In this document: positions 3,092-32,219 of the stretch, one piece after another
How the letters are laid out: the number at the start of each line of letters is the position of its first letter
Position numbering within the stretch: position 1 is the first letter of the stretch
NCBI GenBank assembly: GCA_028279745.1
Contig: JANQNC010000001.1
Span: 914,154 to 978,153, forward strand
Origin: Candidatus Nanoarchaeia archaeon
GTDB taxonomy: Archaea; Nanobdellota; Nanobdellia; Woesearchaeales; JANQNC01
Length of the DNA: 64,000 nucleotides
Reading direction: 5' to 3'
The notes under the pieces: model-generated
The model's database searches: none
Told to the model about the DNA's origin: nothing
The model's input: only the letters and a program-made list of their open reading frames with translations
Made by a program: the position numbers and the translations under genes

Positions 3092-3657
3092 AAGCTCAAG
3101 ACGTGATAAAAAAGATCGCACCCGTTTTTTTAGTACTAGTAAGTATGTTTGTTATTTTTATAGTTTTAATTATGGCTCAAATGGGAATTTTTACTTGTGC
3201 ACCTGGAGAAGTTGGTGAGTGTAATCTGTTGGATGGAGAAAAAGGCATAAGGTTATGTTCTTCTTCGGGAAAACTAAGCAAATCCTGGAGTGTATGTTTA
3301 CCTTATGAATGCAACAGACTGGACGCCACAGAGAAGTGCGAATTGACTGAAGGATTAGTTGGAATAAAAAAGTGTGTTCCTCGGGGTGAAGTTGGCAAAG
3401 TTTGGAGTGAGTGCGTTTTACACGAATGCGAGTATGACGGTAAGATCTTAGAATGTGGTTTTTCTGACGGAAGTAAAGGAATCCAGAACTGTGTGAGTTT
3501 TAAAGGAATTGGCACTAAATTAAGTGAATGTATCCTGTATGAATGTGAATATGCTTTTCAGGAAAAAGCCTGTATTTTAAGTAGTGGCTTAGAAGGCAAA
3601 CAAATCTGCCAAAGCCATAGTGGTGGCTTGGGCAAAAAATGGAGTGAATGCCAGTAA
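3088..3657 (+). CDS. Membrane-anchored cysteine-rich repeat protein (4 x ~31-aa Cys4 repeats)
   Basis: N-terminal TM (VFLVLVSMFVIFIVLIMA) followed by four repeats of pattern C-x6-G-x3-C-x(10-12)-WSEC-x3-EC; start overlaps upstream stop. Confidence 0.55.
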   Translation: MKAQDVIKKIAPVFLVLVSMFVIFIVLIMAQMGIFTCAPGEVGECNLLDGEKGIRLCSSSGKLSKSWSVCLPYECNRLDATEKCELTEGLVGIKKCVPRGEVGKVWSECVLHECEYDGKILECGFSDGSKGIQNCVSFKGIGTKLSECILYECEYAFQEKACILSSGLEGKQICQSHSGGLGKKWSECQ

Positions 3658-3750
3658 CTCCACTAAATCTTTATAAATAAAATACTTGTTCTTTAATGTA
3701 TGAACCTGTAGCGCAGCCTGGCAACTGCCACTGTCAGTTGACACCAGGAG

Positions 3751-3780
3751 GCGACTCCTAGTGCTTCGCACCGGAGTCCC
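3751..3780 (+). repeat. 30-nt hairpin module copy 1 (inside D-loop intron of tRNA-Arg CCT)
   Basis: gcgactcctagtgcttcgcaccggagtccc; stem GCGACTCC/GGAGTCcc; repeated at 3901-3930 with 2 mismatches. Confidence 0.8.
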
Positions 3781-3900
3781 CTGGGAACACTTGATCGTGT
3801 AAGTTGGGCAAATAGCGCAATAGCCTCCTAAACTTAAGTTGAAGACAGCTATAGGTCGAGGGTTCGAAACAGCTGGTTACGCTCAGCTGGCACGCAAAAA

Positions 3901-3930
3901 GCGACTCCTAGTGTTACGCACCGGAGTCCC
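3901..3930 (+). repeat. 30-nt hairpin module copy 2 (inside T-loop intron of tRNA-Arg CCT)
   Basis: gcgactcctagtgttacgcaccggagtccc; both copies are also adjacent to a shared tgtcagtt/gttgac motif. Confidence 0.8.
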
Positions 3931-3987
3931 TTGTGATTTGTCAGTTAGTAACTGTTGACGAAAGTCCCTCCAGGTTCGTATTTTAAG

Positions 3988-5091
3988 ATGATACAAGAAG
4001 CATACCAGATAGCAAAAGAGAATTTGAGGAATTCGTATAGTGATAAAGGGGTGTTAGCAGGGACAACACACTTTTCAGACTACTGGGCAAGAGACGGACT
4101 CTATGCCGTATTTGGAATGTGTGAATTGGGGGATTTTGAAAAAATAAAAAAAGAGCTGCTTTTGTTGCTTAATTATCAGAAAAAGGATGGGCAGCTGCCT
4201 TTAAGGGTTGGACAGAAAAGTATGATCTTGAACTTTTTAGGAATTAAAGGTAAGATACAAGCAAGATATACAGAAGACAAAAAAGATAATGTTCCAACAG
4301 ATCAAAATTCTTTGTTTATAATTGCATTAAAACATTATGTTGATAAGACTGGAGACATTGATTTTGTAAAAAAGAACCATTCAAAGATAAAAAAAGTGAT
4401 AGACTGGTATGGTGCAGGAGATCTGGTTGTTGAAGATGAATATTGCTCGTGGGCAGATAACATAAGAAAAAAAGGAAAAGTGCTGTATACGAATGTACTT
4501 TACTGTAAGGCATTATCAGATATGCATAAAATGGAGAATAAGCTGGGACATAAATCAGAGTATATGAAAAAATCAGTTTTTATTAAAGAGAAAATCAACA
4601 AAGAATTCTGGAGCGGAAACTACTATTCAGACTGGATAGACTCTGAAGGGCGACATGATTATTTTACTGCCTGTGGAAACTTATTAGCAATAATATTTGA
4701 TGTTGCAGACAAAGAGAAAGCATATAAGATACTTTATTTTATGGAAAAGAATAAGTTAGATGGGGGGTTCACAACACTTAATGCATTTCCAAGATACAAA
4801 AAAGAAGAAAAGTCAGCATTACTGAGATTTTTCGGGATGGATGACTATCAAGACAATGTATACTGGTTATGGCCTGGCTGTTTGGATATAATAGCAAGAC
4901 ACAAAACAGGATTTAAGTATGAAGATCTTGTCAGGAAGATGTCAGAAAAGATTGTAGAGCATAAAGGAGTTTATGAAGTTTATAGTTTGGATGGGAAACC
5001 ACTTAAGAGATTATTTTATAGGTCAGAAAAGAATTTTGCATGGAGTTCGTCTCTTTTTATACATGCTGTTCACGAAACAAAACTATTTTGA
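3988..5091 (+). CDS. Glycoside hydrolase-like protein (six-hairpin, amylo-alpha-1,6-glucosidase / GH63-like)
   Basis: HFSDYWARDG motif and overall resemblance to GDE_C/GH63 family; start moved to ATG 3988 because longer ORF (3955) overlaps the tRNA. Confidence 0.55.
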   Translation: MIQEAYQIAKENLRNSYSDKGVLAGTTHFSDYWARDGLYAVFGMCELGDFEKIKKELLLLLNYQKKDGQLPLRVGQKSMILNFLGIKGKIQARYTEDKKDNVPTDQNSLFIIALKHYVDKTGDIDFVKKNHSKIKKVIDWYGAGDLVVEDEYCSWADNIRKKGKVLYTNVLYCKALSDMHKMENKLGHKSEYMKKSVFIKEKINKEFWSGNYYSDWIDSEGRHDYFTACGNLLAIIFDVADKEKAYKILYFMEKNKLDGGFTTLNAFPRYKKEEKSALLRFFGMDDYQDNVYWLWPGCLDIIARHKTGFKYEDLVRKMSEKIVEHKGVYEVYSLDGKPLKRLFYRSEKNFAWSSSLFIHAVHETKLF

Positions 5092-8305: not shown

Positions 8306-9367
8306 ATGAAAGTACTACTCGGTGCCCTATCTTGGGGTTTAGGACATGCAACAAGAGACCTTCCAGTACTAAAAAAAATGATTGATGAAGGTCATGAAGT
8401 TACTGTTTTAAGCTATGGGCGATCTCTTGAATTACTAAAACATACTCTAAAAGATAGATGTGAATACAAAGAGTTGTTTGATTACCCTTTACCATATACT
8501 AAGTCAAATTTAATGCCTGGGAAAATAATGCTTTACTTTCCAAGAATTTTAAAGGCAATAAAAGATGAGCATAGAAAAGCACAAAAAATAATACATCAAG
8601 GAAACTTTGACAGAGTGATATCTGATGCAAGATATGGAGTTTATAGTTTAAAGAAACCTTCGTTCTTTATGACAAATCAAGTCAAATACATTTCTCCCGG
8701 AAGATTCTTTTTGGGAGAGTTAGCGACAGAATTTTTTAACCATAACTTTCACAAGAAGTTCAGTGCAGTTATTGTCCCAGATTATAGGGATAACTCTTTA
8801 AGCGGGGATTTAAGCCATAACTTGAAATTTCTTAAAGATAAAAGGATAGAATATGTGGGGATGTTAACAGATCTTCAGAAGAAGGAAGTCAAGCAAGACA
8901 TCGATCACTTTATCACTATATCAGGACCAGAACCACAAAGAACCTTATTTCAGGAAAAGATATTCAAGCAGATAGACCAGCTAAAAGGGAGAATTGTTGT
9001 GACGTGCGGGAAGCCTGAGTCAATTAATAAAGATCTATTGGGGGATGTTGAAGTCCATACACATCTGAAAAGAGAAGATCAAGAAGATTTTACCAACAGA
9101 AGCAAAATGGTGATAGCAAGATCAGGATACACAACAATGATGGAACTAGTTGCACTAGGAAAAAAAGCATTATTGGTTCCAACACCTGGGCAAACAGAAC
9201 AAGAGTACCTATCAAAATATCATAATAAGTTAGGAACCTTTTATTCGGTAAGCCAAAATAAATTCCAATTAGGAAGAGATGCAAAGATTGCAGAGAAATA
9301 TTCTGGATTTAACGAACAACACGATACAAAAAAATCTGTAGACAAATTTATGCAGATAATCTCTTAA
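8306..9367 (+). CDS. UDP-glycosyltransferase (MGT/GT1-GT28 superfamily)
   Basis: N-terminal GALSWGLGHATR motif typical of MGT/UGT-like GT-B enzymes. Confidence 0.55.
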   Translation: MKVLLGALSWGLGHATRDLPVLKKMIDEGHEVTVLSYGRSLELLKHTLKDRCEYKELFDYPLPYTKSNLMPGKIMLYFPRILKAIKDEHRKAQKIIHQGNFDRVISDARYGVYSLKKPSFFMTNQVKYISPGRFFLGELATEFFNHNFHKKFSAVIVPDYRDNSLSGDLSHNLKFLKDKRIEYVGMLTDLQKKEVKQDIDHFITISGPEPQRTLFQEKIFKQIDQLKGRIVVTCGKPESINKDLLGDVEVHTHLKREDQEDFTNRSKMVIARSGYTTMMELVALGKKALLVPTPGQTEQEYLSKYHNKLGTFYSVSQNKFQLGRDAKIAEKYSGFNEQHDTKKSVDKFMQIIS

Positions 9368-18381: not shown

Positions 18382-18458
18382 GGTTCACGTGTTTAATGGA
18401 TGCTATATAAAGGTTTTTATGGGTTTAAAAGGGAGAATTTAATGTTTTTAGAAGTGAA

Positions 18459-18503
18459 GCGAGCGCCCGGACGTTAAATAAGGGTTCCACCCTTATCAAC
18501 CTG
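18459..18503 (-). repeat. Partial duplicate of tRNA-Cys 3' end (14-16 nt) preceded by 26-nt hairpin direct repeat copy B
   Basis: + strand aagcgagcgcccggac (18457-18472) identical to 18552-18567; ataagggttccacccttatcaacctg (18478-18503) matches 18625-18650 with 1 mismatch. Confidence 0.8.
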
Positions 18504-18552
18504 GATTGTGGTACTTCACTTTGTTCAGTACCACGCAGACTTTTAGAAACAA

Positions 18553-18624
18553 AGCGAGCGCCCGGACTTGAACCGGGGATCAGAGGGTTGCAGCCTCTTG
18601 CCTTAGCCGCTTGGCCACGCCCGC
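18553..18624 (-). tRNA. tRNA-Cys (anticodon GCA), intronless
   Basis: Manual fold of reverse complement: GCGGGCG-TG-GCC-AAGCGGCTAA-GGC-A-AGAGG-CTGCAAC-CCTCT-GATCC-CCGGG-TTCAAGT-CCCGG-CGCTCGC-T; U73 discriminator typical of tRNA-Cys. Confidence 0.85.
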
Positions 18625-18650
18625 ATAAGGGTTACACCCTTATCAACCTG
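18625..18650 (-). repeat. 26-nt hairpin direct repeat copy A immediately 5' of tRNA-Cys
   Basis: minus strand CAGGTTGATAAGGGTGTAACCCTTAT; stem ATAAGGG/CCCTTAT. Confidence 0.8.
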
Positions 18651-18728
18651 TAAGGGGTTTCGCTACGCTCAAGCCCCTGGGTACTGTTGGACTTGATGTG
18701 CTGTAGCACTTCAGTTGTGAAAATAAAA

Positions 18729-18869
18729 CGGACCTGGAGGGACTTTCGATGCATAAGCATATTCGAACCCTCGGTCTACAGCTCTCTGCGACGCCAGGCG
18801 CTGAGCCAGCGAATCTATGATTCTAGCGTGTAGAAGGCTGTCGCCCTATCCAGACTAGGCTACAGGTCC
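18729..18869 (-). tRNA. tRNA-Arg (anticodon TCT) with two introns (anticodon loop 47 nt; T-loop 59/60 19 nt)
   Basis: Manual fold of reverse complement: GGACCTG-TA-GCCT-AGTCTGGATA-GGGC-G-ACAGC-CTTCTA^[47 nt]^A-GCTGT-AGACC-GAGGG-TTCGAA^[19 nt]^T-CCCTC-CAGGTCC-G. Confidence 0.65.
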
Positions 18870-18967
18870 ATTGTAAATTGCAGAATCAGGACATTGTTTA
18901 TAAAAGTTATGTACTTTTACCTATATAAAGAAAAGGTCAGAGGGAGCTGACCTTTTCTAACTAGCAA

Positions 18968-19234
18968 ATGATGCATCATTTGCTAGTAAACGAAAGACAT
19001 AAAAAAGCAGGAGTTCAAAAAGGAAGTATGGAAACAATCACAGGTATTGAAGGAAAAAAGAATGTGTGGATCATATTTGTGCTAGTCGCAGTAATAGTTT
19101 TCTTTGCAAACTTAGGACTAAGATATATGTTTGAGAGAGAGGTTGATGTATTTTATTCAATACTTGTAACGATGCTTATAATGTTGGCTTACTTTTTACT
19201 TACCTTGTTTTTGAACATAAGAAAAGCATCTTAA
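18968..19234 (+). CDS. Hypothetical small membrane protein
   Basis: ORF with two hydrophobic segments; true start may be internal (METITG). Confidence 0.3.
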   Translation: MMHHLLVNERHKKAGVQKGSMETITGIEGKKNVWIIFVLVAVIVFFANLGLRYMFEREVDVFYSILVTMLIMLAYFLLTLFLNIRKAS

Positions 19235-22794: not shown

Positions 22795-22906
22795 TAATTA
22801 AGATTTGAGTTTTGTCATTTATAAAAGTTATTGTTAAAAGTTAGGGTGGTGGTTAATTTATAAACCACACAAAAAGAATATAAACCAATTGTATCTTTTG
22901 CGTGAG

Positions 22907-23650
22907 ATGAAAGAAAAACTAGCAATTCTAGATGCAGGAGCACAATATGGAAAAGTAATTGACAGACGAGTAAGAGAGATGAACGTCGAGTCAGAAATAC
23001 TTCCAATGAACACACCTGCAGAAAAACTAAAAGATTACAAATCAATAATAATCTCGGGTGGACCACAAAGCGCATACGGCAAAGATGCACCAGAATACGA
23101 TCCAGCAATATTCTCTTTAGGAAAACCAATACTGGGAATATGTTACGGAATGCAGTTAATGAATTACGTGATGGGGGGAGTAGTGGCAGAAGAAGGTCAC
23201 AGAGAGTATGGGCAGTGCGATATGACAATCACAAACGGATCCAAACTGTTTAAAGATCTGGATCAAAAGCAAGTAGTGTTGATGAGCCACGGAGATAGTG
23301 TGAGAGGGTTAGCAGACGGATTTAAGACAACTGCAAGCTCAAGTGGGGTAGTGGCTGCTATAGAGAACACTGAGAGAAAACTTTTTGGAGTGCAGTTCCA
23401 TCCAGAAGTGGATGATACAGAGAATGGAAAAACAATATTGCACAATTTCTTGTATGCAGTATCTGACTTTTCAGGTTCTTATACTATGGAGAACAGAGAA
23501 GAGAAAGCGATAGAATACTTTAGAGAAACAATAGGTGACGGAAAAGCTTTGGACAAGATGGTTAACAGAATAATGGACGAAGTACCAAAAGTTTCAAGAG
23601 TTGCTTATGACTTAACTTCAAAGCCACCAGGTACAACCGAGTGGGAATAA
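22907..23650 (+). CDS. guaA: GMP synthase glutamine amidotransferase subunit (with ~60-aa C-terminal remnant of the ATP-pyrophosphatase linker)
   Basis: class I GATase catalytic GICYGMQL and the HPE motif in FGVQFHPEV; C-terminal YTMENREEKAIEYFRETIGDGKA resembles the start of the GuaA ATP-PPase domain but no SGGVDSS PP-loop follows. Confidence 0.8.
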   Translation: MKEKLAILDAGAQYGKVIDRRVREMNVESEILPMNTPAEKLKDYKSIIISGGPQSAYGKDAPEYDPAIFSLGKPILGICYGMQLMNYVMGGVVAEEGHREYGQCDMTITNGSKLFKDLDQKQVVLMSHGDSVRGLADGFKTTASSSGVVAAIENTERKLFGVQFHPEVDDTENGKTILHNFLYAVSDFSGSYTMENREEKAIEYFRETIGDGKALDKMVNRIMDEVPKVSRVAYDLTSKPPGTTEWE

Positions 23651-23749
23651 ATACTTTATTTTTTTAATTTTGTTACCAACTCATGATAATTTAGCATAGG
23701 TAACATTTATAATAAAGTAGTTTATATTCTTACCATCTTAAAGTAAAAG

Positions 23750-26700
23750 GTGGTTATAATAGCGAATGGGGAGACAGGTGTTGTAAAAGGGTTGGAATTC
23801 TTCTTACCAAAATCCATAGATGACAAAAAAGTATCCGTCGTGGAAGTAGGTCCATTTGACGAAAACGCACAGGCAAAAGAGATAAACAAATTCTTAGGGA
23901 CAAGCATTGAATCATTATACAGAATTAATTCGTATATTATGGTTCATCCGCCAGAAATAACCAACATTGAAGACTTGCTTAGGGGAAAACCATTTGTAGA
24001 TCCAATAATGCATCAAGCGACACTAAATGAACCTCTGATTAGGAAGTTGGGTATTCCTTATGACTTTGTATTCCAAGATATGTTGAATCCAGGAACATCA
24101 GATGCAGAAGGCGACACAAAACTAAGACAGACATTACTTGCGTTAGGAAAGAAATTCGAAGAAGGTGATGTGGGATTCAGAGGAAGACAGTACTTCATGA
24201 AAGGAAAACTAGGGATAGATGAATCAGAAAACATATCCGCATTCTTAGCAAACCCTGATCTAAACCAAAGATTGGTAGTTCATAGAAATGAATACGAAAG
24301 AGGACAAAAAGTACAAGTTCCAGTTGTTACATTGCCACCAAAGATAGAGATACAAAAATATGATGTTCTTCGTATGAGTGATGATGAACTTCTTGAGTTG
24401 AGCAAGACAAGAAAATTGGCAGCAAGCTTAGAAGAGATGCAGCAATTCAGAGACATGTACAAAGACAAAGCATTTATCGAGAAAAGAAAAGAGAAAGGAC
24501 TGGATGAAAGAGCGACAGACGTAGAACTAGAAACATGGTTTGGTCTGAGAAGCGAGCATTGTTTCCATAAAGAGTTTAATGCACACATAACACTCGAAGA
24601 CAAAGTTAACGATCCAATATTCAAAAGAGCAGTAGAGAAAGGTTATCTGAAGAAAAATGATAAAGGAGAACTGATTTTAGATAAAGGGATCTTCAAAACA
24701 TTCATACAAGAACCAGCACAAAAAATATATGACAAACTAGAAAAAAGAGGAAAGAACTGGATTGTGGCTCCAATGTTCACAGACAATGCAGGCACAGTAC
24801 TTTATGATGAAAACTACATGTTCTGTATCAAATTCGAAACACATAACTCGCCATCAAATAAAGAACCTGTTCAAGGAGCAAAAACAGGAATAGATGGGGT
24901 TAACCGAGACATATTTGGAAACATGCGAGGAACATTCGATGCAATCGCAAACTTTTTCTTATACGGAACAGGGAATATTGATTATGAAGGATGGTTGCCA
25001 AAAGGAGTAAAGCATCCATACGTGATACTAAAAGGAGCAACACAGGGAGTAAGAGAGGGAGGAAACGAATCTCAAATAGCAACACTCGGTGGAAGCTCAG
25101 TATTCGATCCAAGAAACTCAGCAAAATGCAAAGTACACGCAGGAACTGTGGGATGGAGCCCAGTAAAATCACCAGACGGAATAAGCTACATAGGAAAAGT
25201 ACCAAACCTAGGAGATCTAGTGTTTGTAGTAGGACAACCTGTGGGTGTGGATGGAGTTCATGGAGCAACAGAAAGTTCACTTATTGCAGACGCAAATATA
25301 AGTTTGGGACACGTACAAGCAGATTACTCGTTTATACAAGCAAAAGCAAAAGGATACATTCTAGAAGTAGCAAGAGACAACTTATTATCATCAATAACTG
25401 ATTTCGGAGCGATGGGATTGGGATCTGCGTCACACGAGATGGCAGAAGCTACCGGCGGATTATTTATGGATTTAGCATTGCATCCTGTGAAGTACAAAGG
25501 AATACAACCCTGGCAAATCAATTGCTCAGAAACACAAGATAGAATGTTACTAGTGGCTAAGCCAGAAAATAAAGAAGAACTGTTTAACAGAGCAAAACTT
25601 CATGATGTTGACATAACCCAAATGGGAGATTTAACAGATTCAGGATATGTTCATTTAACACACGGAGAAGAAAGTGCAGCCTTCATAGACATAAAGAAAC
25701 TGTTCAACAAGGAACCAAGAAAAAAAATGCACGCAACCTGGTATGGTAATGGGGAAAAGGAAGCAGAAGAAATTAAAGGAGAATACTCACTAGAAGAAGC
25801 ACTATGTGATGTTATTGCAAGACCAGATATTGCATCAAAAGAATGGTTCTTCAGACAAAAAGACTCATCAGTAAAAGGTGCAACAATACAAGGGCCGCTA
25901 ATAGGAAAGAAACAAGAAGTAGAAGCAGACGCAACCATACAAAAACCATTAGATACAGAAGGGAAAGACTTTGGAGCAATAGCATATTCATTTGGAGTGA
26001 ATGAAAAACAATCAGACTTAGATGCATACTATTCAGCACAAAACTCATTCTTAGAGATGGTGGGAAAAGTGGTGGCGATTGGTGGAAAGTTGCCAGACAT
26101 GGATAAAGCAAAATGGGATGCGTGGGCAGTATGTGGTAATTATTGCCAGCCAAACTCAGAATCAAAGACAACACTAACAAAAGAAAGTGGAGAGCATAAC
26201 TTGGCTTCACTAGTAAGGGAAGCGATGGGAGTAAGAGAAGCAGAAGAAGCACTTAACATCCCAGTAATTTCTGGAAAAGACAGTATGAAATGCTCATGCA
26301 GATATGAAGTTGATGAGTCATTCAAACTAGAAGATGTACCTTTGGATTTAAGAAGACACATAACACTAGTTGAAAAAGATGGAAAAAGAGAGATTGAGAT
26401 ACATGATCCAGATAGTTATCTAGCAACATGCGCAGTAAAAATAGAAGATTACAGGAAATGTGTGAGTTCAAGCTTCAAACAAGAAGGCGATCTGATCTAT
26501 GTTTTAGGCATCACTGAAAAACAACTAGGAGCATCACAATATCATGAAGCGATGGGTTACAAAGAACAAGGAGCACCAATACAGGGTGGAGAAGTTCCAA
26601 AAGCAGACCTTGAAGAATTTATACAAGCAGGTAAAGCAGTTCATGCTGCAATAGACAACGAATTAGTTGCATCATGTAGTTACCTGCACAAAGGTGGGTT

Positions 26701-27031
26701 AGCAGTTTCAGCTGTAAAAGCAGCAATGGCAGGAGATTTAGGAATAGACATAAATGTAAACAGCGTGTGGAGTCCAGAAGATCTAGCAGATGAAGAATTA
26801 TTATTTTCAGAAACACAAGGAAGATACATGGTTACTGTAGCTAAAGAAGATCAAGATGCATTCGAAAGAACATTAAATGACGTAATTTACAGTAAAGTTG
26901 GAACTGTAACTTCAAATGGCATGACTGTACTGAAAGGGGATGGAAAGAAAGAATCAATTGACATTTCAAAAGTAAAAGAAAGCTATCAAAAAACACTAAG
27001 CTTTGGTTTAAATGATCTGGTGAAAAAATAA
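23750..27031 (+). CDS. purL: Phosphoribosylformylglycinamidine synthase PurL with long N-terminal extension (large-PurL-like N-domain), no C-terminal glutaminase domain
   Basis: 1093 aa; FGAM synthase AIR-synthase-like duplicated core (…HNSPSN…, GVDGVHGATESS, ISGKDSM); GTG start 23750 uncertain. Confidence 0.85.
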   Translation: MVIIANGETGVVKGLEFFLPKSIDDKKVSVVEVGPFDENAQAKEINKFLGTSIESLYRINSYIMVHPPEITNIEDLLRGKPFVDPIMHQATLNEPLIRKLGIPYDFVFQDMLNPGTSDAEGDTKLRQTLLALGKKFEEGDVGFRGRQYFMKGKLGIDESENISAFLANPDLNQRLVVHRNEYERGQKVQVPVVTLPPKIEIQKYDVLRMSDDELLELSKTRKLAASLEEMQQFRDMYKDKAFIEKRKEKGLDERATDVELETWFGLRSEHCFHKEFNAHITLEDKVNDPIFKRAVEKGYLKKNDKGELILDKGIFKTFIQEPAQKIYDKLEKRGKNWIVAPMFTDNAGTVLYDENYMFCIKFETHNSPSNKEPVQGAKTGIDGVNRDIFGNMRGTFDAIANFFLYGTGNIDYEGWLPKGVKHPYVILKGATQGVREGGNESQIATLGGSSVFDPRNSAKCKVHAGTVGWSPVKSPDGISYIGKVPNLGDLVFVVGQPVGVDGVHGATESSLIADANISLGHVQADYSFIQAKAKGYILEVARDNLLSSITDFGAMGLGSASHEMAEATGGLFMDLALHPVKYKGIQPWQINCSETQDRMLLVAKPENKEELFNRAKLHDVDITQMGDLTDSGYVHLTHGEESAAFIDIKKLFNKEPRKKMHATWYGNGEKEAEEIKGEYSLEEALCDVIARPDIASKEWFFRQKDSSVKGATIQGPLIGKKQEVEADATIQKPLDTEGKDFGAIAYSFGVNEKQSDLDAYYSAQNSFLEMVGKVVAIGGKLPDMDKAKWDAWAVCGNYCQPNSESKTTLTKESGEHNLASLVREAMGVREAEEALNIPVISGKDSMKCSCRYEVDESFKLEDVPLDLRRHITLVEKDGKREIEIHDPDSYLATCAVKIEDYRKCVSSSFKQEGDLIYVLGITEKQLGASQYHEAMGYKEQGAPIQGGEVPKADLEEFIQAGKAVHAAIDNELVASCSYLHKGGLAVSAVKAAMAGDLGIDINVNSVWSPEDLADEELLFSETQGRYMVTVAKEDQDAFERTLNDVIYSKVGTVTSNGMTVLKGDGKKESIDISKVKESYQKTLSFGLNDLVKK

Positions 27032-27879
27032 TGGTTAAAGCATACGTAATAAACGGACTTGGGATAGGGTGTGATGAAGAAGTGGCTCATGCATATGAAA
27101 AAGCAGGAGCAAAAGTAGAGATGGTACACTTTAGACAACTGTTATCTATGAGCAAAGACAAACTTTTCGAAGCACAAATCATAAACCTTGCAGGAGGATT
27201 CTTACACGGAGACTTTGGCGGAGCAGGAATGTATGCTGCGAATGAGTTGGAGCATTCAGGCATAAAGGATTTATTGATAGAGTTTGCAGATGAAGGAAAT
27301 GTAATATATGGTCAGTGCAACGGATTTCAATTTCTTGTAAAAACAGGGTTGCTTCCAGGGATTAACAGTGATTATTCTAAGCAAATACTTACATTAACAC
27401 ACAATGACTGTGGAAATTATAGGGTTGCACCTGTAATGCATAAAGCAGATCAAGCTCATTTTGCGTTTAAAGGAATTGATATGATCCAATTGTGGTGTAG
27501 ACATGCGGAAGGAAAAGGACAATTCAATTCAAAGTATGGGTCAGTATCTGAAGAAGAAGGAGAAAAAAACAGACAAGAAGTAAATAAAAACCATGTTATA
27601 TTGCGTTATGTCGATAATAATGGAGAGCCAACAGAAAAATTTCCTTTCTCTCCTAATGGGTCCATTGACGGAATTGCAGGTTTGGCAAATTTTAATGGTC
27701 ACATATTTGGAAACATGGCACACCCAGAAGTATCCATATATTCATCAAGAGATCCAGATTGGTTCGTTCAGAAAGACAGATTAAGAAGACAAGGAATAAA
27801 AGCGAAAGATCTGGAAGGAGAGATTATGGAAGGACAAGGACTGAAGATCTTTAGAAATATAGTCAATTATGTTAAATAA
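27031..27879 (+). CDS. purQ: FGAM synthase glutamine amidotransferase subunit PurQ-like
   Basis: GQCNGFQFL nucleophile motif and NMAHPE motif resembling glutaminase domain of large PurL; start overlaps purL stop. Confidence 0.75.
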   Translation: MVKAYVINGLGIGCDEEVAHAYEKAGAKVEMVHFRQLLSMSKDKLFEAQIINLAGGFLHGDFGGAGMYAANELEHSGIKDLLIEFADEGNVIYGQCNGFQFLVKTGLLPGINSDYSKQILTLTHNDCGNYRVAPVMHKADQAHFAFKGIDMIQLWCRHAEGKGQFNSKYGSVSEEEGEKNRQEVNKNHVILRYVDNNGEPTEKFPFSPNGSIDGIAGLANFNGHIFGNMAHPEVSIYSSRDPDWFVQKDRLRRQGIKAKDLEGEIMEGQGLKIFRNIVNYVK

Positions 27880-27932
27880 ACAACCGAGGCAGCAGAAATT
27901 AAAAATTTCTGGGCCTCGAAAGCCGAGGTGGA
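27880..27932 (+). promoter_or_regulatory. Two adjacent hairpins between purQ and purH (candidate terminator/attenuator)
   Basis: cagaaatt-aaa-aatttctg followed by cctcg-aaagc-cgagg directly upstream of the purH ATG (27936). Confidence 0.35.
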
Positions 27933-27935
27933 AAA

Positions 27936-28748
27936 ATGTCAATAAGACAAGTAGAAGGATTGCAAAGAAACAAAATACCAGTACAGAACGTTCTAATAAG
28001 TGTTTTTTACAAAGACGGACTAGAAGATATGGTAAAGGGATTGATAGATGTAAACCCTGATGTATTATTTATGTCAACAGGCGGAACATACAATGGAATG
28101 AAGGAAATGCTGGGGAGTGATGCAGATAAACATCTGATAGCTGTAGATGAATACACAGAATTCCCTGAAATGGATGGAGGTTTGGTGAAAACTTTACACC
28201 CAAAGATACATGCAGGATTATTGGGAGAGAGAAACAACCCAAAACACCAAGAATACATAAAAAACTTATCAAAAACAATCAAGTTCTTAGATGATGGTGT
28301 CGAAAGAGTGTTTGATGCGGAATTAGGAAAACAATACAGAGTTGAAGTAGTAGAAGGAGTAACAGGAGTCTATATCGATTTGATGATAGGAAATCTTTAC
28401 CCATTCGAACAAGTAATTAAAAAAATAGAATCTGGAGAGATAAATCCAAAAACGAAAGAACCTTACAACTACGAGGATGCAAGAGGATTTAAAGATATAG
28501 GTGGACCGGGCATGACAAGAGCGGCGGCAAAGAACTTCCTGAGCTGTGCAGTAATATGCGACCCAGCAGACTATAACATAGCAGACACTTTAGTTGATGG
28601 ATGCACAACATTCGAACAAAGGTTCGCACTTCAGCAGAAAGTATGGGAGATGTCCTGGAAATATGACAAGAAAATAAGTGATTTCGAAAATCAACAGGAC
28701 GTTGCAAAAGTCAAAGCACTTTATGAATTCGAGAAGGAGGGTGAATGA
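27936..28748 (+). CDS. purH: PurH N-terminal half: IMP cyclohydrolase (MGS-like domain) plus linker
   Basis: MGS-like domain motifs LFMSTGGT, LVKTLHPKIHAGLL, NLYPF, DIGGPGMTRAAAKNF; C-terminal FEQRFALQQKVWE matches PurH inter-domain linker. Confidence 0.8.
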   Translation: MSIRQVEGLQRNKIPVQNVLISVFYKDGLEDMVKGLIDVNPDVLFMSTGGTYNGMKEMLGSDADKHLIAVDEYTEFPEMDGGLVKTLHPKIHAGLLGERNNPKHQEYIKNLSKTIKFLDDGVERVFDAELGKQYRVEVVEGVTGVYIDLMIGNLYPFEQVIKKIESGEINPKTKEPYNYEDARGFKDIGGPGMTRAAAKNFLSCAVICDPADYNIADTLVDGCTTFEQRFALQQKVWEMSWKYDKKISDFENQQDVAKVKALYEFEKEGE

Positions 28749-28749
28749 A

Positions 28750-30078
28750 ATGACACAAGATATCAAACATAAACCAGTTATGGATCTGAAAGGTGGAGAA
28801 AATAGTCATCTGAAAGCAAGGTTAAGAGCGGCAGTTGATGAAAAAGAAGAGCCATTGAAGAAGATTTTATATTCTGAAGTCTATGACCGAGGAGCAAAAG
28901 TAAGAAAACCAGGATGGACGAACATAGGAGACTTCAGTGCGTGCATGAGAACCATAACCGCACTAGATACAGTATACAAAAATTCTGAAACGCCACATAT
29001 AGCAGTTGCATCAAAACACACAAGACCTGTAGTATTAGCAAACGGAAAAACACAACTAGAAGCAGTAGTAAAAGCAATTGCAGGAGACTTAAACTCGCCA
29101 TTCGGAGGGGTTTGGGCATTAAACACACCACTAGAACAAGAAACAGCAGAGTTCATAGACAGAATGTTTATAGAGGGGGTTATTGCGCCAGAGTATGAAA
29201 AAGGAACAGCAGAATTACTAAAAGATACAAGTAAAGTAAAAATGCATCAAAACAGATTCCTACTAGAAGTTGGGTACTTAAAACCAGAAGACCTTGATGT
29301 CATAGTTGGGAAGAGTTTAACACCTGTTGCATTTGGGTGTTACATAGAGCAAGACAGAGAACCATTATTCGATGCACTAAAAGAATGTACAGTAGTAACT
29401 GGAAATGATGGAAATTCAGACATAAACTCATTAGATAGTCAGCTGATAAATGATATTAACTTTGCAGGAAATGTTGCAAGTTACCTATCCTCAAATCTGA
29501 TATTCTACGTGCATAACGGAGCGATAGCAGGATTAGGAGATGGATGCGGGGCAAGAACAGTCGCAGCAGAAAAAGCAAGAACCATGCTAGAAAAATCGGC
29601 ATACGCAGCAATAAGTGCAGACAAGGAGGTTAAGGATTATGTGTGGGATGCAGTACTTTACGACACTCCATTCACAAGAGAAGACTTTGATATAATACAA
29701 ACACCAATAGAACTAACTGCATTCTCAGATGCATTCTTCCCCAAACTAGATGGCTTTGTAGAAACATCTGGGGTGGATAGAATCAAAGAAGAATTCGGAG
29801 CAAGAGAAGTGGTTTATACAGAGAAAAAGAAAGGAAAAGAATATGATGTGACATTCATACCAAAGAAAAACAACTTCGATCCAGACTACAACCAAAGTTT
29901 GATACCAAAAGTTGTAATACAGCCCGGTGGAAGTATGGCTGATAAGCTAGTAAGGCCAATGGCTGAAAATTATGGAATTAAGATGGTATTCACAATGCCT
30001 CCAGAAGTTGGAGAAAAATATTTAGCGGGAGAGAAAGCAACAGGAAGAAGATTCTTTGGACATAACATAATGTCCTAG
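28750..30078 (+). CDS. purH: PurH C-terminal half: AICAR transformylase domain
   Basis: Starts 1 nt after the IMPCH ORF stop, different frame, own GGAGG RBS; LKGGENSH (cf. YGENPHQ), ASKHTRPV (cf. KHTNPCG), C-terminal GGSMAD…MVFT…RRFFGH (cf. GGSIRD…MVFTG.RHFRH). Confidence 0.75.
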   Translation: MTQDIKHKPVMDLKGGENSHLKARLRAAVDEKEEPLKKILYSEVYDRGAKVRKPGWTNIGDFSACMRTITALDTVYKNSETPHIAVASKHTRPVVLANGKTQLEAVVKAIAGDLNSPFGGVWALNTPLEQETAEFIDRMFIEGVIAPEYEKGTAELLKDTSKVKMHQNRFLLEVGYLKPEDLDVIVGKSLTPVAFGCYIEQDREPLFDALKECTVVTGNDGNSDINSLDSQLINDINFAGNVASYLSSNLIFYVHNGAIAGLGDGCGARTVAAEKARTMLEKSAYAAISADKEVKDYVWDAVLYDTPFTREDFDIIQTPIELTAFSDAFFPKLDGFVETSGVDRIKEEFGAREVVYTEKKKGKEYDVTFIPKKNNFDPDYNQSLIPKVVIQPGGSMADKLVRPMAENYGIKMVFTMPPEVGEKYLAGEKATGRRFFGHNIMS

Positions 30079-30090
30079 GAGGTTAAAAAA

Positions 30091-31386
30091 ATGGCAAAAG
30101 TACTAGTTATAGGATCAGGTGGGAGAGAACACGCATTAGGTTGGAAAATAGCACAAAGCGAAGAAGTTGAGGAAGTGCTTTATGCACCTGGAAATCCAGG
30201 GATGTTAGAAGGAAAATGTAAAGTTGTCCCAGTTGACGGATCAAAGATAGAGAATGCGGATGCAATATCAAACTTAATCGAACAGGAAAATATAGATTTA
30301 ACAGTTGTAGGGCCCGAAGCTCCACTGGCTGCAGGGTTAGTTAACACGCTGAATAACAGAGGGCATAATCGTGTTTTTGGACCAACAAAACAAGCATCAT
30401 TGCTAGAGTCTGACAAATTTTATTCATACGACATCATGAAAGAGATAGGAATACCTCAAGCAAACTCAATGAAATGTTTCTCAACACAAGATGCGGTAAA
30501 CGCAATAAAAATAATGTCAGAAACTGAAGGTGTTGTGATTAAAGCAAGAGGATTGACAGGAGGAAAAGGAGTAACAGTGTGTGATTCAAAAGAAGAAGCG
30601 CTTACAGAGATATCAAACCATGCTGAAAACTATGGATCACATGTGCTAATAGCAGAAAGATTATTCGGACAAGAATTTTCAGTATTTGGAATTTCAGATG
30701 GAGAACAAGTATCACCTCTAGAAATCTCAATACAGGATCATAAACCATTATTAGATGGAGACAAAGGACCGAACACAGGAGGGATGGGGGCTTACGGACC
30801 AGCACCAGTTGCATCAGCAGAAGTAGTAAAGAAAGTGGCTGATGATATAATGACTCCAGTAGTGCAAGAGATGAAGAAAAAAGGCACACCCTACAAAGGA
30901 TTCCTATATGGTGGAATGATCATGACAGAAAAAGGTCCAAAAGTAATCGAGTTCAACATAAGATTCGGAGATCCAGAATGCCAGCCAGGAATGATGATGG
31001 TAGAAAGTGACATGTACAAAGCACTATCATATGCAGTTGATGGAAAACTTAACGAAGTTGACTTTAAGTTCAAACCCGGAGCAGCATGTTGTGTTGTGCT
31101 AGCATCACAAGGATACCCTGGAAGTTATGAAAAAGGACTGCTGATAAAAGGAATAGAAGAAGCAGAACAAATCTCTGCAGTAAAAGTATTCCACGCAGGA
31201 ACAAGAGAAGTAGAAAACGGAGATGGAAGATTTGTAACAGCTGGAGGAAGAGTTCTTGGAGTTACAGGATATTCACCAGCAGGAATTTCGGAAGCACAAA
31301 AAGTGGCTTACAACGCAGTATCAAAAATAAGCATTCCAGGCGGATGGGCTTATAGACAAGACATAGCGGATAAAGCTCTGAAGTAA
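30091..31386 (+). CDS. purD: Phosphoribosylamine-glycine ligase
   Basis: MAKVLVIGSGGREHALGWK and ATP-grasp body; 431 aa. Confidence 0.95.
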   Translation: MAKVLVIGSGGREHALGWKIAQSEEVEEVLYAPGNPGMLEGKCKVVPVDGSKIENADAISNLIEQENIDLTVVGPEAPLAAGLVNTLNNRGHNRVFGPTKQASLLESDKFYSYDIMKEIGIPQANSMKCFSTQDAVNAIKIMSETEGVVIKARGLTGGKGVTVCDSKEEALTEISNHAENYGSHVLIAERLFGQEFSVFGISDGEQVSPLEISIQDHKPLLDGDKGPNTGGMGAYGPAPVASAEVVKKVADDIMTPVVQEMKKKGTPYKGFLYGGMIMTEKGPKVIEFNIRFGDPECQPGMMMVESDMYKALSYAVDGKLNEVDFKFKPGAACCVVLASQGYPGSYEKGLLIKGIEEAEQISAVKVFHAGTREVENGDGRFVTAGGRVLGVTGYSPAGISEAQKVAYNAVSKISIPGGWAYRQDIADKALK

Positions 31387-31388
31387 AA

Positions 31389-32213: not shown

Positions 32214-32219
32214 TTGAAA

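What the first reader, a model, noticed from the sequence alone, without database searches (positions are those of the whole stretch)
3702..3978. tRNA-Arg(CCT) gene interrupted by three introns, including D-loop and T-loop (59/60) positions
Hand folding gives a complete cloverleaf only if three segments are removed: ~90 nt in the D-loop (between AGCCTGG and ATA), ~16 nt at the canonical 37/38 site, and ~96 nt between T-loop positions 59 and 60. The resulting 75-nt exon set (acceptor GAACCTG/CAGGTTC, D-stem GCGC/GCGC, anticodon arm ATAGC-CTCCTAA-GCTAT, T-arm GAGGG-TTCGAAT-CCCTC) closely parallels the second tRNA-Arg at 18729-18869. Three-intron tRNAs are known mainly from Thermoproteales and a few other archaea. 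One in an AT-rich, DPANN-like genome would be missed by standard tRNA finders and implies a splicing endonuclease with relaxed BHB specificity.
Basis: seen in the sequence. Interest (0 to 1): 0.8.

Follow-up and report, generated by a model that had tools for sequence, protein, structure and literature searches.

The report
Three-intron arginine tRNA gene, Woesearchaeota
This is very probably a working arginine tRNA gene of a tiny DPANN (Woesearchaeota-type) archaeon that is broken into four pieces by three protein-spliced introns; this is a known kind of gene, found here in a less studied lineage, and two of its introns carry a shared hairpin element that also occurs elsewhere in related genomes.

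Summary
Removing 90 nt (D-loop, after G19), 16 nt (37/38) and 96 nt (59/60) from window 3702-3978 leaves a 75-nt perfect cloverleaf tRNA-Arg(CCT). ARAGORN and Rfam both miss the unspliced gene. Each junction carries a bulge-helix-bulge (BHB)-type motif whose predicted cut sites give exactly the mature tRNA.

Comparative evidence:
- Homologous genes L023 and L027 have three introns at the same three sites.
- The syntenic gene L024 has only the 37/38 intron, and its D-loop and T-loop are contiguous exactly at the predicted junctions.
- Five spliced homologues pair at 100% of cloverleaf positions, with 8 compensatory pairs.
- The central BHB helix covaries between exon and intron.
- A TATA box is conserved upstream.

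The host is a Woesearchaeota-like DPANN archaeon. AGG makes up 21% of its Arg codons.

Multi-intron BHB tRNAs (up to three introns, at D-loop and 59/60 sites) and heavily disrupted DPANN tRNAs are already published, so this is a new member of a known kind.

An extra result: introns 1 and 3 share a ~50-nt hairpin module. The same module sits in 59/60 introns of Ala, Glu and Val tRNAs, next to tRNA genes, and in unrelated intergenic spacers of Woesearchaeota MAGs. This suggests intron or module mobility.

The parts
3670..3677 (+). TATA-box-like promoter element TTTATAAA, 25-32 nt upstream of tRNA position 1
   Evidence: Read from the sequence. The same octamer sits at the same distance in the homologues L023 and L024, in invariant columns of alignment A2.
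3702..3721 (+). Exon 1: tRNA positions 1-19 (acceptor 5' strand, D-stem 5' strand, D-loop up to G18G19)
   Evidence: It is contiguous with exon 2 in the homologue L024.
3722..3811 (+). Intron 1, 90 nt, in the D-loop after G19. BHB: central helix GCCU/GGGC, bulges GG|C and AA|A, inner helix AACU/AGUU
   Evidence: The central helix covaries in homologues: GCUU/GAGC in L023 and GUCC/GGAU in L027. The intron is absent in L024.
3741..3790 (+). Copy 1 of the shared hairpin module (A-rich linker plus hairpin GCGACUCC-UA-GUGC-UUC-GCAC-C-GGAGUCCCC) inside intron 1
   Evidence: Direct repeat of 36 nt, 89% identical to the copy in intron 3. Covariance model R1 scores it 65.3 bits.
3812..3830 (+). Exon 2: positions 20-37 (rest of the D-arm, anticodon stem 5' strand, anticodon CCT)
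3831..3846 (+). Intron 2, 16 nt, canonical 37/38 site. Relaxed BHB: central helix CUCC/GAAG (3 of 4 pairs, mismatch at position 34), bulges UA|A and AC|A
   Evidence: The same site is occupied in L023 (69 nt), L024 (22 nt; ARAGORN calls this intron) and L027 (64 nt).
3847..3868 (+). Exon 3: positions 38-59 (anticodon stem 3' strand, variable loop, T-stem 5' strand, T-loop UUCGAA)
3869..3964 (+). Intron 3, 96 nt, at 59/60. BHB: outer helix is the T-stem (5 bp), central helix UUCG/CGAA, bulges AA|A and AG|U, inner helix CAGC/GUUG with one extra unpaired A
   Evidence: This BHB forms even in the unconstrained minimum-free-energy fold (table). The intron is absent in L024. Homologous 59/60 introns occur in L008, L010, L011, L019 and L023.
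3891..3940 (+). Copy 2 of the shared hairpin module, inside intron 3
   Evidence: (57.9 bits).
3965..3978 (+). Exon 4: positions 60-73 (U60, T-stem 3' strand, acceptor 3' strand, discriminator G73). No CCA is encoded
3981..3984 (+). Short T-run (TTTT) just after the gene, a possible archaeal termination signal. The next gene starts at 3988
   Evidence: Read from the sequence. The start of the next gene comes from the gene call on Logan contig L001. The terminator role is inferred only.

Best explanation
Window 3702-3978 is a functional gene for tRNA-Arg(CCU) of a Woesearchaeota-type DPANN archaeon, interrupted by three archaeal bulge-helix-bulge (BHB) introns.

Proposed mechanism (inferred from established archaeal tRNA splicing):
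1. RNA polymerase starts about 25 nt downstream of the conserved TTTATAAA box and makes a precursor of roughly 280 nt.
2. The four exons fold into the cloverleaf core. Each intron protrudes as its own rod or hairpin domain from the D-loop, the anticodon loop and the T-loop.
3. At each exon-intron boundary, 4 exon nucleotides pair with 4 intron nucleotides. This forms the central helix, flanked by two 3-nt bulges.
4. The splicing endonuclease EndA cuts two nucleotides 3' of that helix on each strand, at six sites in all.
5. RtcB-type ligase joins the four exons, and probably circularises the introns.
6. CCA is added after transcription.
7. The 75-nt product reads AGG, the second most used Arg codon here.

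Introns 1 and 3 are long because each contains a two-hairpin module. That module also occurs in other tRNA introns, in tRNA flanks and in intergenic DNA of related genomes. I interpret it as a spreading or converting palindromic element that is tolerated wherever it is spliced out or lies outside genes.

What is shown: the sequence motifs, their conservation and covariation, and intron presence/absence among homologues. What is inferred: transcription, cleavage, ligation and the mobility of the module.
For: **Spliced product.** It is a perfect tRNA-Arg(cct).

**BHB motifs with correctly placed cut sites**:
- Intron 1: GCCU/GGGC with bulges GG|C and AA|A.
- Intron 3: T-stem, UUCG/CGAA, bulges AA|A and AG|U. 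This BHB forms in the unconstrained minimum-free-energy fold (z = -4.66).
- Intron 2: relaxed, 3 of 4 pairs in the central helix.

**Intron presence and absence among homologues.**
- L024, next to the homologous GDE_C gene (61% identical protein), has D-loop AGCTTGG|ATAGCGC and T-loop TTCAAA|TCCCC uninterrupted and only the 37/38 intron.
- L023 (65% identical neighbour protein) and L027 have all three introns, with lengths 88/69/91 and 169/64/140 nt.
- L032 has a single intron, at 28/29.

**Selection on the mature tRNA.** Five spliced homologues pair in 100% of cells. Eight of 21 pairs show compensatory changes, and 0 of 500 shuffles reach that.

**Exon-intron covariation in the central helix.**
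- D-loop site: GCCU/GGGC, GCUU/GAGC, GUCC/GGAU.
- 59/60 site: UUCG/CGAA, UUCA/UGAA, UGCG/CGCA.

**Promoter.** The TATA box is conserved.

**Demand for the tRNA.** AGG accounts for 96 of 459 Arg codons.

**Same 59/60 intron type elsewhere.** It occurs in the window's tRNA-Arg(TCT) and in Ala, Glu and Val tRNAs of Woesearchaeota contigs.

**Archaeal host**.

**Independent assemblies.** They show the same architecture (L001, L023, L027).

**Literature.** BHB introns at D-loop and 59/60 sites and up to three per gene are established (PMC4090602, PMC8450103). DPANN genomes are rich in disrupted tRNAs (PMC5829648).
Against: - There is no RNA evidence, so splicing is inferred.
- EndA and RtcB were not found in the 64-kb window (Pfam scans of about 50 ORFs; weak phmmer test). 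The enzyme type is therefore unknown.
- Intron 2's BHB is poor: an A.C mismatch in the central helix and an inner helix of at most about 2 bp.
- Intron 1's outer helix is interrupted by one bulged A.
- Most long 59/60 introns have one extra unpaired nucleotide next to the central helix.
- I could not check whether the genome holds another, intact tRNA-Arg(CCU). tRNA-Arg(UCU) might also read AGG.
- Two 36-nt direct repeats inside one gene could promote deletion of exons 2 and 3.
Confidence: 0.88

Rival explanations
1. The locus is a dead tRNA-Arg(CCU) pseudogene. An ancestral one-intron gene was hit twice by a small palindromic mobile element, in the D-loop and in the T-loop, and is no longer matured.
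For: - The two long insertions share a 36-nt, 89% identical segment.
- That segment also occurs in intergenic DNA, in either orientation relative to neighbouring genes.
- The homologue L024 lacks both insertions.
- The BHB motifs are not fully canonical.
Against: - Both insertions are bounded by BHB motifs whose cut sites restore the tRNA to the nucleotide.
- The same three sites are occupied in L023 and L027 by strongly diverged introns that keep the BHB through compensatory exon/intron changes.
- The exons remain under stem-preserving selection: 100% of cells paired and 8 compensatory pairs.
- The promoter is conserved.
- Pseudogenes would not keep all of this across lineages whose neighbouring proteins are only 46-65% identical.
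Confidence: 0.06
2. The repeat-containing structure is an assembly artefact: a mis-join or duplication at the 36-nt repeat created an apparent second long insertion.
For: An independent Logan contig (L001) starts at about window 3868, that is, at the exon 3/intron 3 boundary and just upstream of the second repeat copy. This shows that short-read assemblers break in this gene.
Against: - L001 independently reproduces intron 3 and exon 4.
- L023 and L027, from unrelated metagenomes, have long introns at both sites.
- The two copies differ at 4 of 36 positions and have entirely different flanks, each fitting its own BHB.
- The window's proteins map to a 1.30-Mb NCBI contig.
Confidence: 0.02
3. 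The gene is functional, but the shared hairpin module is not a passive or mobile passenger. It is a functional RNA domain, for example a protein-binding platform or an intron-borne small RNA released by splicing, analogous to the C/D-box RNA in the euryarchaeal tRNA-Trp intron.
For: - The core (26 nt read by eye; the searched pattern had 21 specified bases) is identical by construction in all 23 occurrences found by exact-pattern search. The copies come from 5 MAGs and 14 metagenome contigs with different flanks.
- The lower stem covaries: pair 10-41 is GC 11, UA 4, AU 3.
- Every tRNA-associated copy has the sense orientation.
- A second subfamily keeps the same shape and the GC-UUC-GC apex with a different stem sequence.
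Against: - No Rfam family matches, and no C/D or H/ACA boxes are present (direct reading).
- Intergenic copies lie antisense to their flanking genes, for example between rpoB and rpoA' in L006. That does not fit a strand-specific RNA function.
- The invariance of the core is partly an artefact of searching with an exact pattern.
- The orthologous intron 1 of L023 has a quite different hairpin.
Confidence: 0.2

Closest known systems
Multi-intron BHB tRNA genes of Thermoproteales/Crenarchaeota (e.g. Pyrobaculum, Thermofilum), as catalogued by Marck & Grosjean 2003 and Sugahara et al. 2008 and reviewed in PMC4090602 and PMC8450103
   Same: - Up to three protein-spliced introns per tRNA gene.
- One intron at 37/38 plus non-canonical ones in the D-loop and at 59/60.
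- Each intron is bounded by a BHB or relaxed BHB.
- The gene is invisible to ordinary tRNA finders.
   Different: - The host is a mesophile-type, AT-rich Woesearchaeota (DPANN) archaeon rather than a hyperthermophilic crenarchaeon.
- The non-canonical introns are long: 90-169 nt here. From my recollection, most crenarchaeal ones are about 12-40 nt.
- The same three sites are kept in at least three diverged lineages for one isoacceptor.
tRNA intron 'transposition' in Thermoproteales (Fujishima et al. 2010, Mol Biol Evol 27:2233, as summarised in PMC4090602)
   Same: Near-identical intron sequence is found at different positions of one tRNA (D-loop and 59/60) and in tRNAs of unrelated identity (Arg, Ala, Glu, Val). 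This implies DNA-level spread or conversion of intron sequence.
   Different: - Only an internal ~50-nt module is shared between the two positions. The BHB-forming ends are position-specific.
- The module also occurs outside introns, in tRNA trailers, next to duplicated tRNA fragments and in ordinary intergenic spacers. I did not find this described.
Disrupted tRNA genes of DPANN archaea and their EndA variants (ARMAN-2 epsilon2 EndA, PMC3239211/PMC3488258; alpha4 EndA with L3 loop in several DPANN lineages, PMC5829648)
   Same: The superphylum is the same. PMC5829648 predicted tRNAs in a Woesearchaeota genome (RBG_13_36_6). [quoted passage not shown]
   Different: That work gives genome-level counts, not this gene. 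The EndA of the present organism could not be examined.
tRNA fragment plus mobile-element model of intron gain in Caldiarchaeum subterraneum (Sugahara et al. 2012, PMC3293823)
   Same: Related contigs show a duplicated 5' fragment of a tRNA lying upstream of the full gene (L014/L015/L020), and duplicated 3' ends downstream of tRNAs (window tRNA-Cys, L008, L016). These resemble the tRNA-Thr fragment described there.
   Different: In that case the intervening DNA is 1.8 kb and encodes a recombinase. Here it is only 60-125 nt of hairpins with no coding capacity.

Membership tests
Archaeal BHB (EndA-spliced) tRNA intron | The host is an archaeon | tested here: met
   GatD/GatE with GAD insert, CDC48 and PCNA are present. 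The nearest named GatE homologues are Woesearchaeota/Nanoarchaeota. Module-bearing contigs come from Woesearchaeota MAGs.
Archaeal BHB (EndA-spliced) tRNA intron | Removing the intron(s) restores a canonical cloverleaf with the conserved tRNA nucleotides | tested here: met
   ARAGORN calls the 75-nt exon set tRNA-Arg(cct). U8, A14, G18G19, A21, U33, T-loop UUCGAAU and G73 are present by direct reading.
Archaeal BHB (EndA-spliced) tRNA intron | Two 3-nt bulges separated by a 4-bp helix at the exon-intron junctions, with the splice sites 2 nt 3' of the helix on each strand | tested here: met
   - Intron 1: central helix 4/4, bulges GG|C and AA|A, inner helix 4 bp, outer helix interrupted.
- Intron 3: outer helix 5 bp, central helix 4/4, bulges AA|A and AG|U, inner helix 4 bp after one extra unpaired nucleotide.
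- Intron 2: central helix 3/4, a relaxed hBH type.
- Random placements reach this quality at about 5e-4.
Archaeal BHB (EndA-spliced) tRNA intron | The motif is maintained by compensatory change in homologues | tested here: met
   - D-loop site: GCCU/GGGC (window), GCUU/GAGC (L023), GUCC/GGAU (L027).
- 59/60 site: UUCG/CGAA, UUCA/UGAA, UGCG/CGCA.
Archaeal BHB (EndA-spliced) tRNA intron | Splicing endonuclease EndA and RtcB ligase are encoded in the genome | not testable with these tools
   Neither was found among about 50 window ORFs scanned with Pfam, nor by phmmer with a recalled M. jannaschii EndA sequence against all fetched DNA (a weak test).
Archaeal BHB (EndA-spliced) tRNA intron | Spliced tRNA and excised or circular introns are observed in RNA | not testable with these tools
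   No transcriptome data are available.
Transposed/homologous tRNA introns (Thermoproteales type) | Clear sequence similarity between introns at different positions, or in tRNAs of different identity | tested here: met
   - Introns 1 and 3 share 36 nt at 89% identity.
- The same module lies in 59/60 introns of tRNA-Ala(GGC), Glu(CTC) and Val(CAC).
- The first 33 nt or so of L023's 59/60 intron match those of the L011 tRNA-Val intron (comparison by eye).
Transposed/homologous tRNA introns (Thermoproteales type) | The whole intron, including its BHB ends, is the transposed unit | tested here: not met
   Between the D-loop and 59/60 introns only the internal module is shared, and the ends differ. 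Among the 59/60 introns themselves the CGAAAG 3' end is shared.
Intron-borne box C/D sRNA (euryarchaeal tRNA-Trp type) | C box RUGAUGA and D box CUGA with a k-turn | tested here: not met
   No such boxes are in intron 1 or 3 by direct reading. Rfam in E-value mode finds nothing relevant.
Group I self-splicing tRNA intron | Ribozyme core of about 200 nt or more (P3-P9) and a typical anticodon-loop location | tested here: not met
   The introns are 16-96 nt. No Rfam group I hit appears at gathering or at E<=10.
MITE / REP-like mobile palindromic element (for the shared module) | Terminal inverted repeats or target-site duplication, multiple dispersed copies, and empty versus filled sites | tested here: inconclusive
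   - Dispersed copies in unrelated contexts are seen.
- Copy number is low: 2 in 64 kb, both in this gene, and 1 per related locus.
- Insertions or deletions made of paired palindromes separate close relatives (L009 vs L005, L020 vs L015).
- No clear target-site duplication and no transposase were identified.

The most novel reading that the evidence does not exclude
The ~50-75-nt two-hairpin module has a variable palindrome, an A-rich linker and the conserved hairpin GCGACUCC-UA-GUGC-UUC-GCAC-C-GGAGUCCCC. The most novel reading is that it belongs to a previously undescribed family of small mobile or converting palindromic elements of Woesearchaeota that colonise tRNA introns, tRNA flanks and intergenic spacers. 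On this reading, such elements, together with the recurrent partial duplications of tRNA 5' or 3' ends seen next to them, would be the vehicle by which BHB introns are expanded, copied between positions, and perhaps created. That would give a concrete, testable mechanism for archaeal tRNA intron gain.
Probability: 0.3. Interest if true: 0.65.

Novelty: new member of a known kind. Interest (0 to 1): 0.42.

Why it matters
- **Annotation.** Genomes of this lineage will appear to lack tRNA-Arg(CCU), and other tRNAs, unless non-canonical introns are modelled. Here ARAGORN and Rfam find 1 of at least 3 tRNA genes in 64 kb. That distorts estimates of completeness and decoding capacity for DPANN archaea.
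- **Biology.** The three-site architecture is kept for one isoacceptor across lineages whose neighbouring proteins are only 46-65% identical, with precursors of up to 448 nt for a 75-nt tRNA. A close relative has lost, or never gained, two of the introns.
- **An open question becomes testable.** How archaeal tRNA introns are gained, lost and copied is still unresolved. The material gathered here allows comparative and experimental tests: presence/absence pairs, a sequence module shared by introns at different positions and by non-intron DNA, and neighbouring partial tRNA duplications.

Tried and rejected
- **Known RNA families.** Rfam gave no family for the introns, the module or its free-standing copies (gathering threshold on the window and 7 loci; E-value mode on 3600-4050 and on L007). 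C/D box, H/ACA, k-turn, ribozyme and group I readings were rejected.
- **Viral origin.** An exact-pattern scan of IMG/VR for the module core gave 0 hits.
- **Free-standing copies as part of one larger single-copy ncRNA** (SRP or RNase P-like). L007 folds into a 210-nt structure closed by a long stem (z = -4.1). However, an alignment of nine non-intron copies shows no conservation beyond the module. A shared CCCGTTCGC motif is simply the reverse complement of the Shine-Dalgarno/5' UTR of the neighbouring genes. Rejected.
- **Genome-wide REP-like palindrome excess.** The window has 21 perfect palindromes of 8 bp or more, against 6-15 in shuffles. This is too weak to build on.
- **Synteny search beyond close relatives.** Loci of GDE_C homologues at 44-47% identity (L025, L026, L028-L030) and of GatE homologues at 60-62% (L031, L033) yielded no recognisable Arg(CCT) gene. 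ARAGORN found nothing in any of the loci L025-L031 and L033. The three-intron gene in L027 only turned up later with a custom 59/60 scan.
- **EndA.** It was not found in the window or in any fetched locus.
- **Source organism name.** Cluster look-ups gave no names. They showed only that the proteins sit on a 1.30-Mb NCBI contig.
- **A scanning error of my own.** My first regular-expression scan for 59/60 introns was flawed, because non-greedy matching tried only one intron length. It was replaced by an exhaustive scan.
- **Antisense-terminator explanation for the sense orientation of intron copies.** I dropped this as a firm claim because some introns carry T5 runs on the sense strand anyway (L008, L010).
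Full report
**1.

Reading window 3500-4200 and cutting out 3722-3811 (90 nt), 3831-3846 (16 nt) and 3869-3964 (96 nt) leaves this 75-nt sequence:

GAACCTGTAGCGCAGCCTGGATAGCGCAATAGCCTCCTAAGCTATAGGTCGAGGGTTCGAATCCCTCCAGGTTCG

- ARAGORN calls it tRNA-Arg(cct) with a flawless cloverleaf.
- On the unspliced window, ARAGORN finds only tRNA-Cys at 18553-18624, with or without its intron option. Rfam at gathering threshold finds the same single tRNA.
- A permissive Rfam scan of 3600-4050 finds no tRNA and nothing else meaningful.
- The gene fills the spacer between the ORF ending at 3657 and the GDE_C-family gene starting at 3988.
- The 277-nt transcript is far more structured than shuffles (-105.4 kcal/mol, z = -4.66).

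**2. Each junction has a bulge-helix-bulge (BHB) type motif with correctly placed cut sites.**

From established knowledge of archaeal splicing, EndA recognises two 3-nt bulges separated by a 4-bp helix and cuts two nucleotides 3' of that helix on each strand. I scored the motif in that register.

| Intron | Central helix | Bulges | Inner helix | Outer helix |
|---|---|---|---|---|
| 1 (D-loop) | GCCU/GGGC, 4/4 | GG\|C and AA\|A | AACU/AGUU | One A:U pair, a bulged A, then the D-stem (HBh'-like) |
| 2 (37/38) | C32-C35/GAAG, 3/4, mismatch at wobble position 34 | UA\|A and AC\|A | Weak | Anticodon stem, 5 bp |
| 3 (59/60) | UUCG/CGAA, 4/4 | AA\|A and AG\|U | CAGC/GUUG after one extra unpaired A | T-stem, 5 bp |

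- The intron 3 BHB appears even in the unconstrained minimum-free-energy fold.
- Forcing the four cloverleaf stems costs only 2.7 kcal/mol.
- Random placements in the window reach 'central helix 4/4, inner helix of 3 bp or more, outer helix of 1 bp or more' at 5e-4.

**3. Comparative evidence is decisive.**

I looked up homologues of the downstream GDE_C protein and of GatE and fetched their contigs.

| Locus | How found | Introns in tRNA-Arg(CCT) |
|---|---|---|
| L023 | Neighbour GDE_C protein 65% identical, GatE 69%; GDE_C-glycosyltransferase-GatE-GatD synteny | Same three sites: 88, 69, 91 nt |
| L024 | Neighbour GDE_C protein 61% identical | Only a 22-nt 37/38 intron, which ARAGORN recognises |
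| L027 | Locus fetched via GDE_C homologue P0006 (46% identical). The gene lies upstream of an LPG_synthase gene that precedes the GDE_C gene, and was found with a custom 59/60 scan | Same three sites: 169, 64, 140 nt; a 448-nt gene for a 75-nt tRNA |
| L032 | GatE 59% identical | One 30-nt intron in the anticodon stem (28/29) |

- In L024 the D-loop AGCTTGG|ATAGCGC and the T-loop TTCAAA|TCCCC are contiguous exactly where the window's exons were joined.
- All five spliced sequences are called tRNA-Arg(cct).
- On their alignment (A3), 100% of cloverleaf cells are standard pairs. Eight of 21 pairs carry compensatory changes, and 0 of 500 shuffles and no slid register come close.
- The BHB central helix, which pairs exon with intron, covaries. 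At the D-loop site it is GCCU/GGGC, GCUU/GAGC and GUCC/GGAU. At 59/60 it is UUCG/CGAA, UUCA/UGAA and UGCG/CGCA.
- A TTTATAAA box lies 25-34 nt upstream in the window, L023 and L024.

These results exclude a pseudogene or an assembly artefact as the main explanation.

**4. Host and demand.**

- The window encodes GatD/GatE, CDC48, PCNA, SMC, a purine-synthesis cluster and type IV-pilus-like genes.
- GC content is about 35%.
- The nearest named GatE homologues are 'Candidatus Woesearchaeota' or Nanoarchaeota.
- The window's proteins are recorded on a 1.30-Mb NCBI contig.
- In 25 ORFs, AGA and AGG make up 321 and 96 of 459 Arg codons. The two Arg tRNAs in this window therefore serve 91% of Arg codons.
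- The second one, tRNA-Arg(TCT) at 18869-18729 (- strand), has a 47-nt 37/38 intron and a 19-nt 59/60 intron with a textbook strict BHB.

**5. The two long introns share a module that also exists elsewhere.**

- Window 3751-3786 and 3901-3936 are a direct repeat, 36 nt and 89% identical.
- An exact-pattern search for its core found 7 loci in GTDB genomes. They come from four MAGs labelled Woesearchaeota and one MAG labelled 'uncultured Methanosarcinales', which contributes L002 and L005. It also found 14 metagenome contigs and none in IMG/VR.
- The module consists of a variable perfect palindrome, an A-rich linker (often GUAAAAAG) and a conserved hairpin (lower stem, C.C mismatch, GACUCC/GGAGUC, UA/C internal loop, GUGC-UUC-GCAC).
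- The lower stem covaries: GC 11, UA 4, AU 3 at one pair.
- A covariance model (R1) finds only the two copies in the 64-kb window and one per related locus.

Contexts of the module:

| Context | Loci |
|---|---|
| Inside 59/60 introns of tRNA-Ala(GGC), Glu(CTC), Val(CAC) and another Val-like tRNA | L008, L010, L011, L019 |
| Directly behind tRNA-Leu(GAG) | L021 |
| Behind tRNA-Ala and tRNA-Glu | L002, L016 |
| Between a duplicated 19-nt 5' fragment of tRNA-Gly(GCC) and the full gene | L014, L015, L020 |
| Ordinary spacers, antisense to the flanking genes (e.g. between rpoB and rpoA' in L006) | L005, L006 and others |

- All tRNA-associated copies are in the sense orientation.
- A second subfamily has the same shape and the same GC-UUC-GC apex but a GGAGGAU/AUCCUCC stem. 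It occupies other 59/60 introns and a 37/38 intron.
- Close relatives differ by insertions or deletions made of pairs of short perfect palindromes: L009 vs L005 next to the module, and L020 vs L015 inside the hairpin apex.
- Hairpin 1 of the window's intron 3 (loop GUUACGCU) resembles hairpin 1 of L023's intron 1 (GUUACGCG). The conserved hairpin of the window's intron 1 matches the window's intron 3 rather than its orthologue in L023.

Together this points to copying or conversion of intron-internal sequence between positions and genes. It resembles the intron 'transposition' described for Thermoproteales (PMC4090602, citing Fujishima 2010). The difference is that here only an internal module travels, and it also lives outside introns.

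**6. Comparison with what is known.**

- BHB introns at D-loop positions and at 59/60, and up to three introns per gene, are established (PMC4090602, PMC8450103).
- PMC5829648 predicted tRNAs for a Woesearchaeota genome. It reported marked tRNA gene disruption in DPANN lineages whose alpha4 EndA carries an extra L3 loop, and incomplete tRNA sets that call for manual curation.
- A tRNA fragment left next to a gene that gained an intron was described for Caldiarchaeum (PMC3293823).
- The gene is therefore a new member of a known kind.
- I found no description of the module. The searched library is incomplete, so I treat its novelty as possible, not established.

**7. What remains inferred.**

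- Transcription, cleavage, ligation and CCA addition are inferred from motifs and conservation.
- The endonuclease and ligase genes are not in this window (Pfam scans; weak phmmer test).
- I could not check the rest of the genome for a second Arg-CCU gene.
- The nature of the module (mobile DNA, converted intron sequence, or functional RNA) is unresolved.

**Verdict.** This is a real, almost certainly functional three-intron tRNA-Arg(CCU) gene. Its interest is moderate, and rises if the shared module proves to be the vehicle of intron spread.

Noticed in passing
window 18729-18869 (- strand): tRNA-Arg(TCT) with two introns, missed by ARAGORN and Rfam. Exons are 18869-18831, 18783-18762 and 18742-18729. 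The introns are 47 nt at 37/38 and 19 nt at 59/60, the latter with a strict hBHBh' motif (UUCG/CGAA, AUGC/GCAU). The spliced 75-mer is 63/75 identical to tRNA-Arg(CCT).
   Followed up: yes
window 18440-18660 (read on the - strand): tRNA-Cys(GCA) (18624-18553) is followed by about 85 nt containing two hairpins, and then by a second copy of its last 15 nt (GTCCGGGCGCTCGCT, positions ~59-73) at 18471-18457. A 27-nt repeat (CAGGTTGATAAGGGTG[T/G]AACCCTTAT, itself a hairpin) precedes both the tRNA and the duplicated fragment. The same layout, '[tRNA][60-125 nt of hairpins][copy of the tRNA's last 11-15 nt]', recurs at L008 (tRNA-Ala) and L016 (tRNA-Glu). It could be a decayed tandem duplication, a footprint of an integrative element, or an intermediate of 59/60 intron gain or loss.
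   Followed up: partly
L014 ~270-420, L015 ~4040-3900 (- strand), L020 ~8650-8800: The first 19 nt of tRNA-Gly(GCC) (GCGCCGATGGTTTAGTGGT, up to the D-loop) are duplicated upstream of the full gene. The A-type module and an AT-rich stretch lie in between. It looks like exon 1 plus the 5' part of a D-loop intron, followed by a fresh intact gene. The full gene has a 94-nt 37/38 intron carrying the B-type module.
   Followed up: partly
L027 36-483: A third three-intron tRNA-Arg(CCT), with introns of 169, 64 and 140 nt, giving a 448-nt gene for a 75-nt tRNA. Its introns are built from different short palindromes separated by A-rich linkers.
   Followed up: yes
L032 16230-16336 (- strand): In a more distant relative (GCA_964434475.1), tRNA-Arg(CCT) has a different acceptor stem and a single 30-nt intron inside the anticodon stem (about 28/29). 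Intron positions are therefore fluid within the clade.
   Followed up: partly
L009 vs L005; L020 (7751-) vs L015 (4955-, - strand): Closely related contigs differ by insertions or deletions of about 50 nt, each made of two short perfect palindromes (for example CAAAAGCcttGCTTTTG plus CAGAAATGCttgGCATTTCTG). One of them lies inside the apex of an intron hairpin. This suggests actively inserting palindrome pairs.
   Followed up: partly
L001 (Logan SRR20820740_189220), start = window ~3868: An independent short-read contig of the same organism ends inside the tRNA gene, at the exon 3/intron 3 boundary just upstream of the second copy of the 36-nt repeat. Such genes will often be split across contigs in metagenome assemblies.
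   Followed up: no
window 27936-30078: The purH (AICARFT/IMPCHase) homologue is split into two overlapping ORFs (27936-28748 and 28678-30078). These match Pfam profile positions 1-62 and 63-308 respectively. This may be a frameshift, a sequencing error or a genuinely split gene, within an otherwise intact purine cluster (22889-33386).
   Followed up: no
window 18929-18987: Two adjacent 12-bp perfect palindromes (AGAAAAGGTCAGagggagCTGACCTTTTCT and ACTAGCAAATGAtgcaTCATTTGCTAGT) lie in the spacer after the tRNA cluster. They are probably terminators or members of the palindrome population seen in related contigs.
   Followed up: no
L007 1700-1925: A free-standing module copy is embedded in a structured region of about 210 nt, closed by a long inverted repeat (AAAAAAGTCGCC..TTGGCC / GGCCA..GGCGACTTTTTT). 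The fold gives z = -4.1 and there is no Rfam match. It may be a longer composite element.
   Followed up: partly
L006 4739-4834: A module copy sits antisense in the 94-nt spacer between the RNA polymerase genes rpoB and rpoA'. A strand-specific RNA function or a terminator would be unexpected there.
   Followed up: partly
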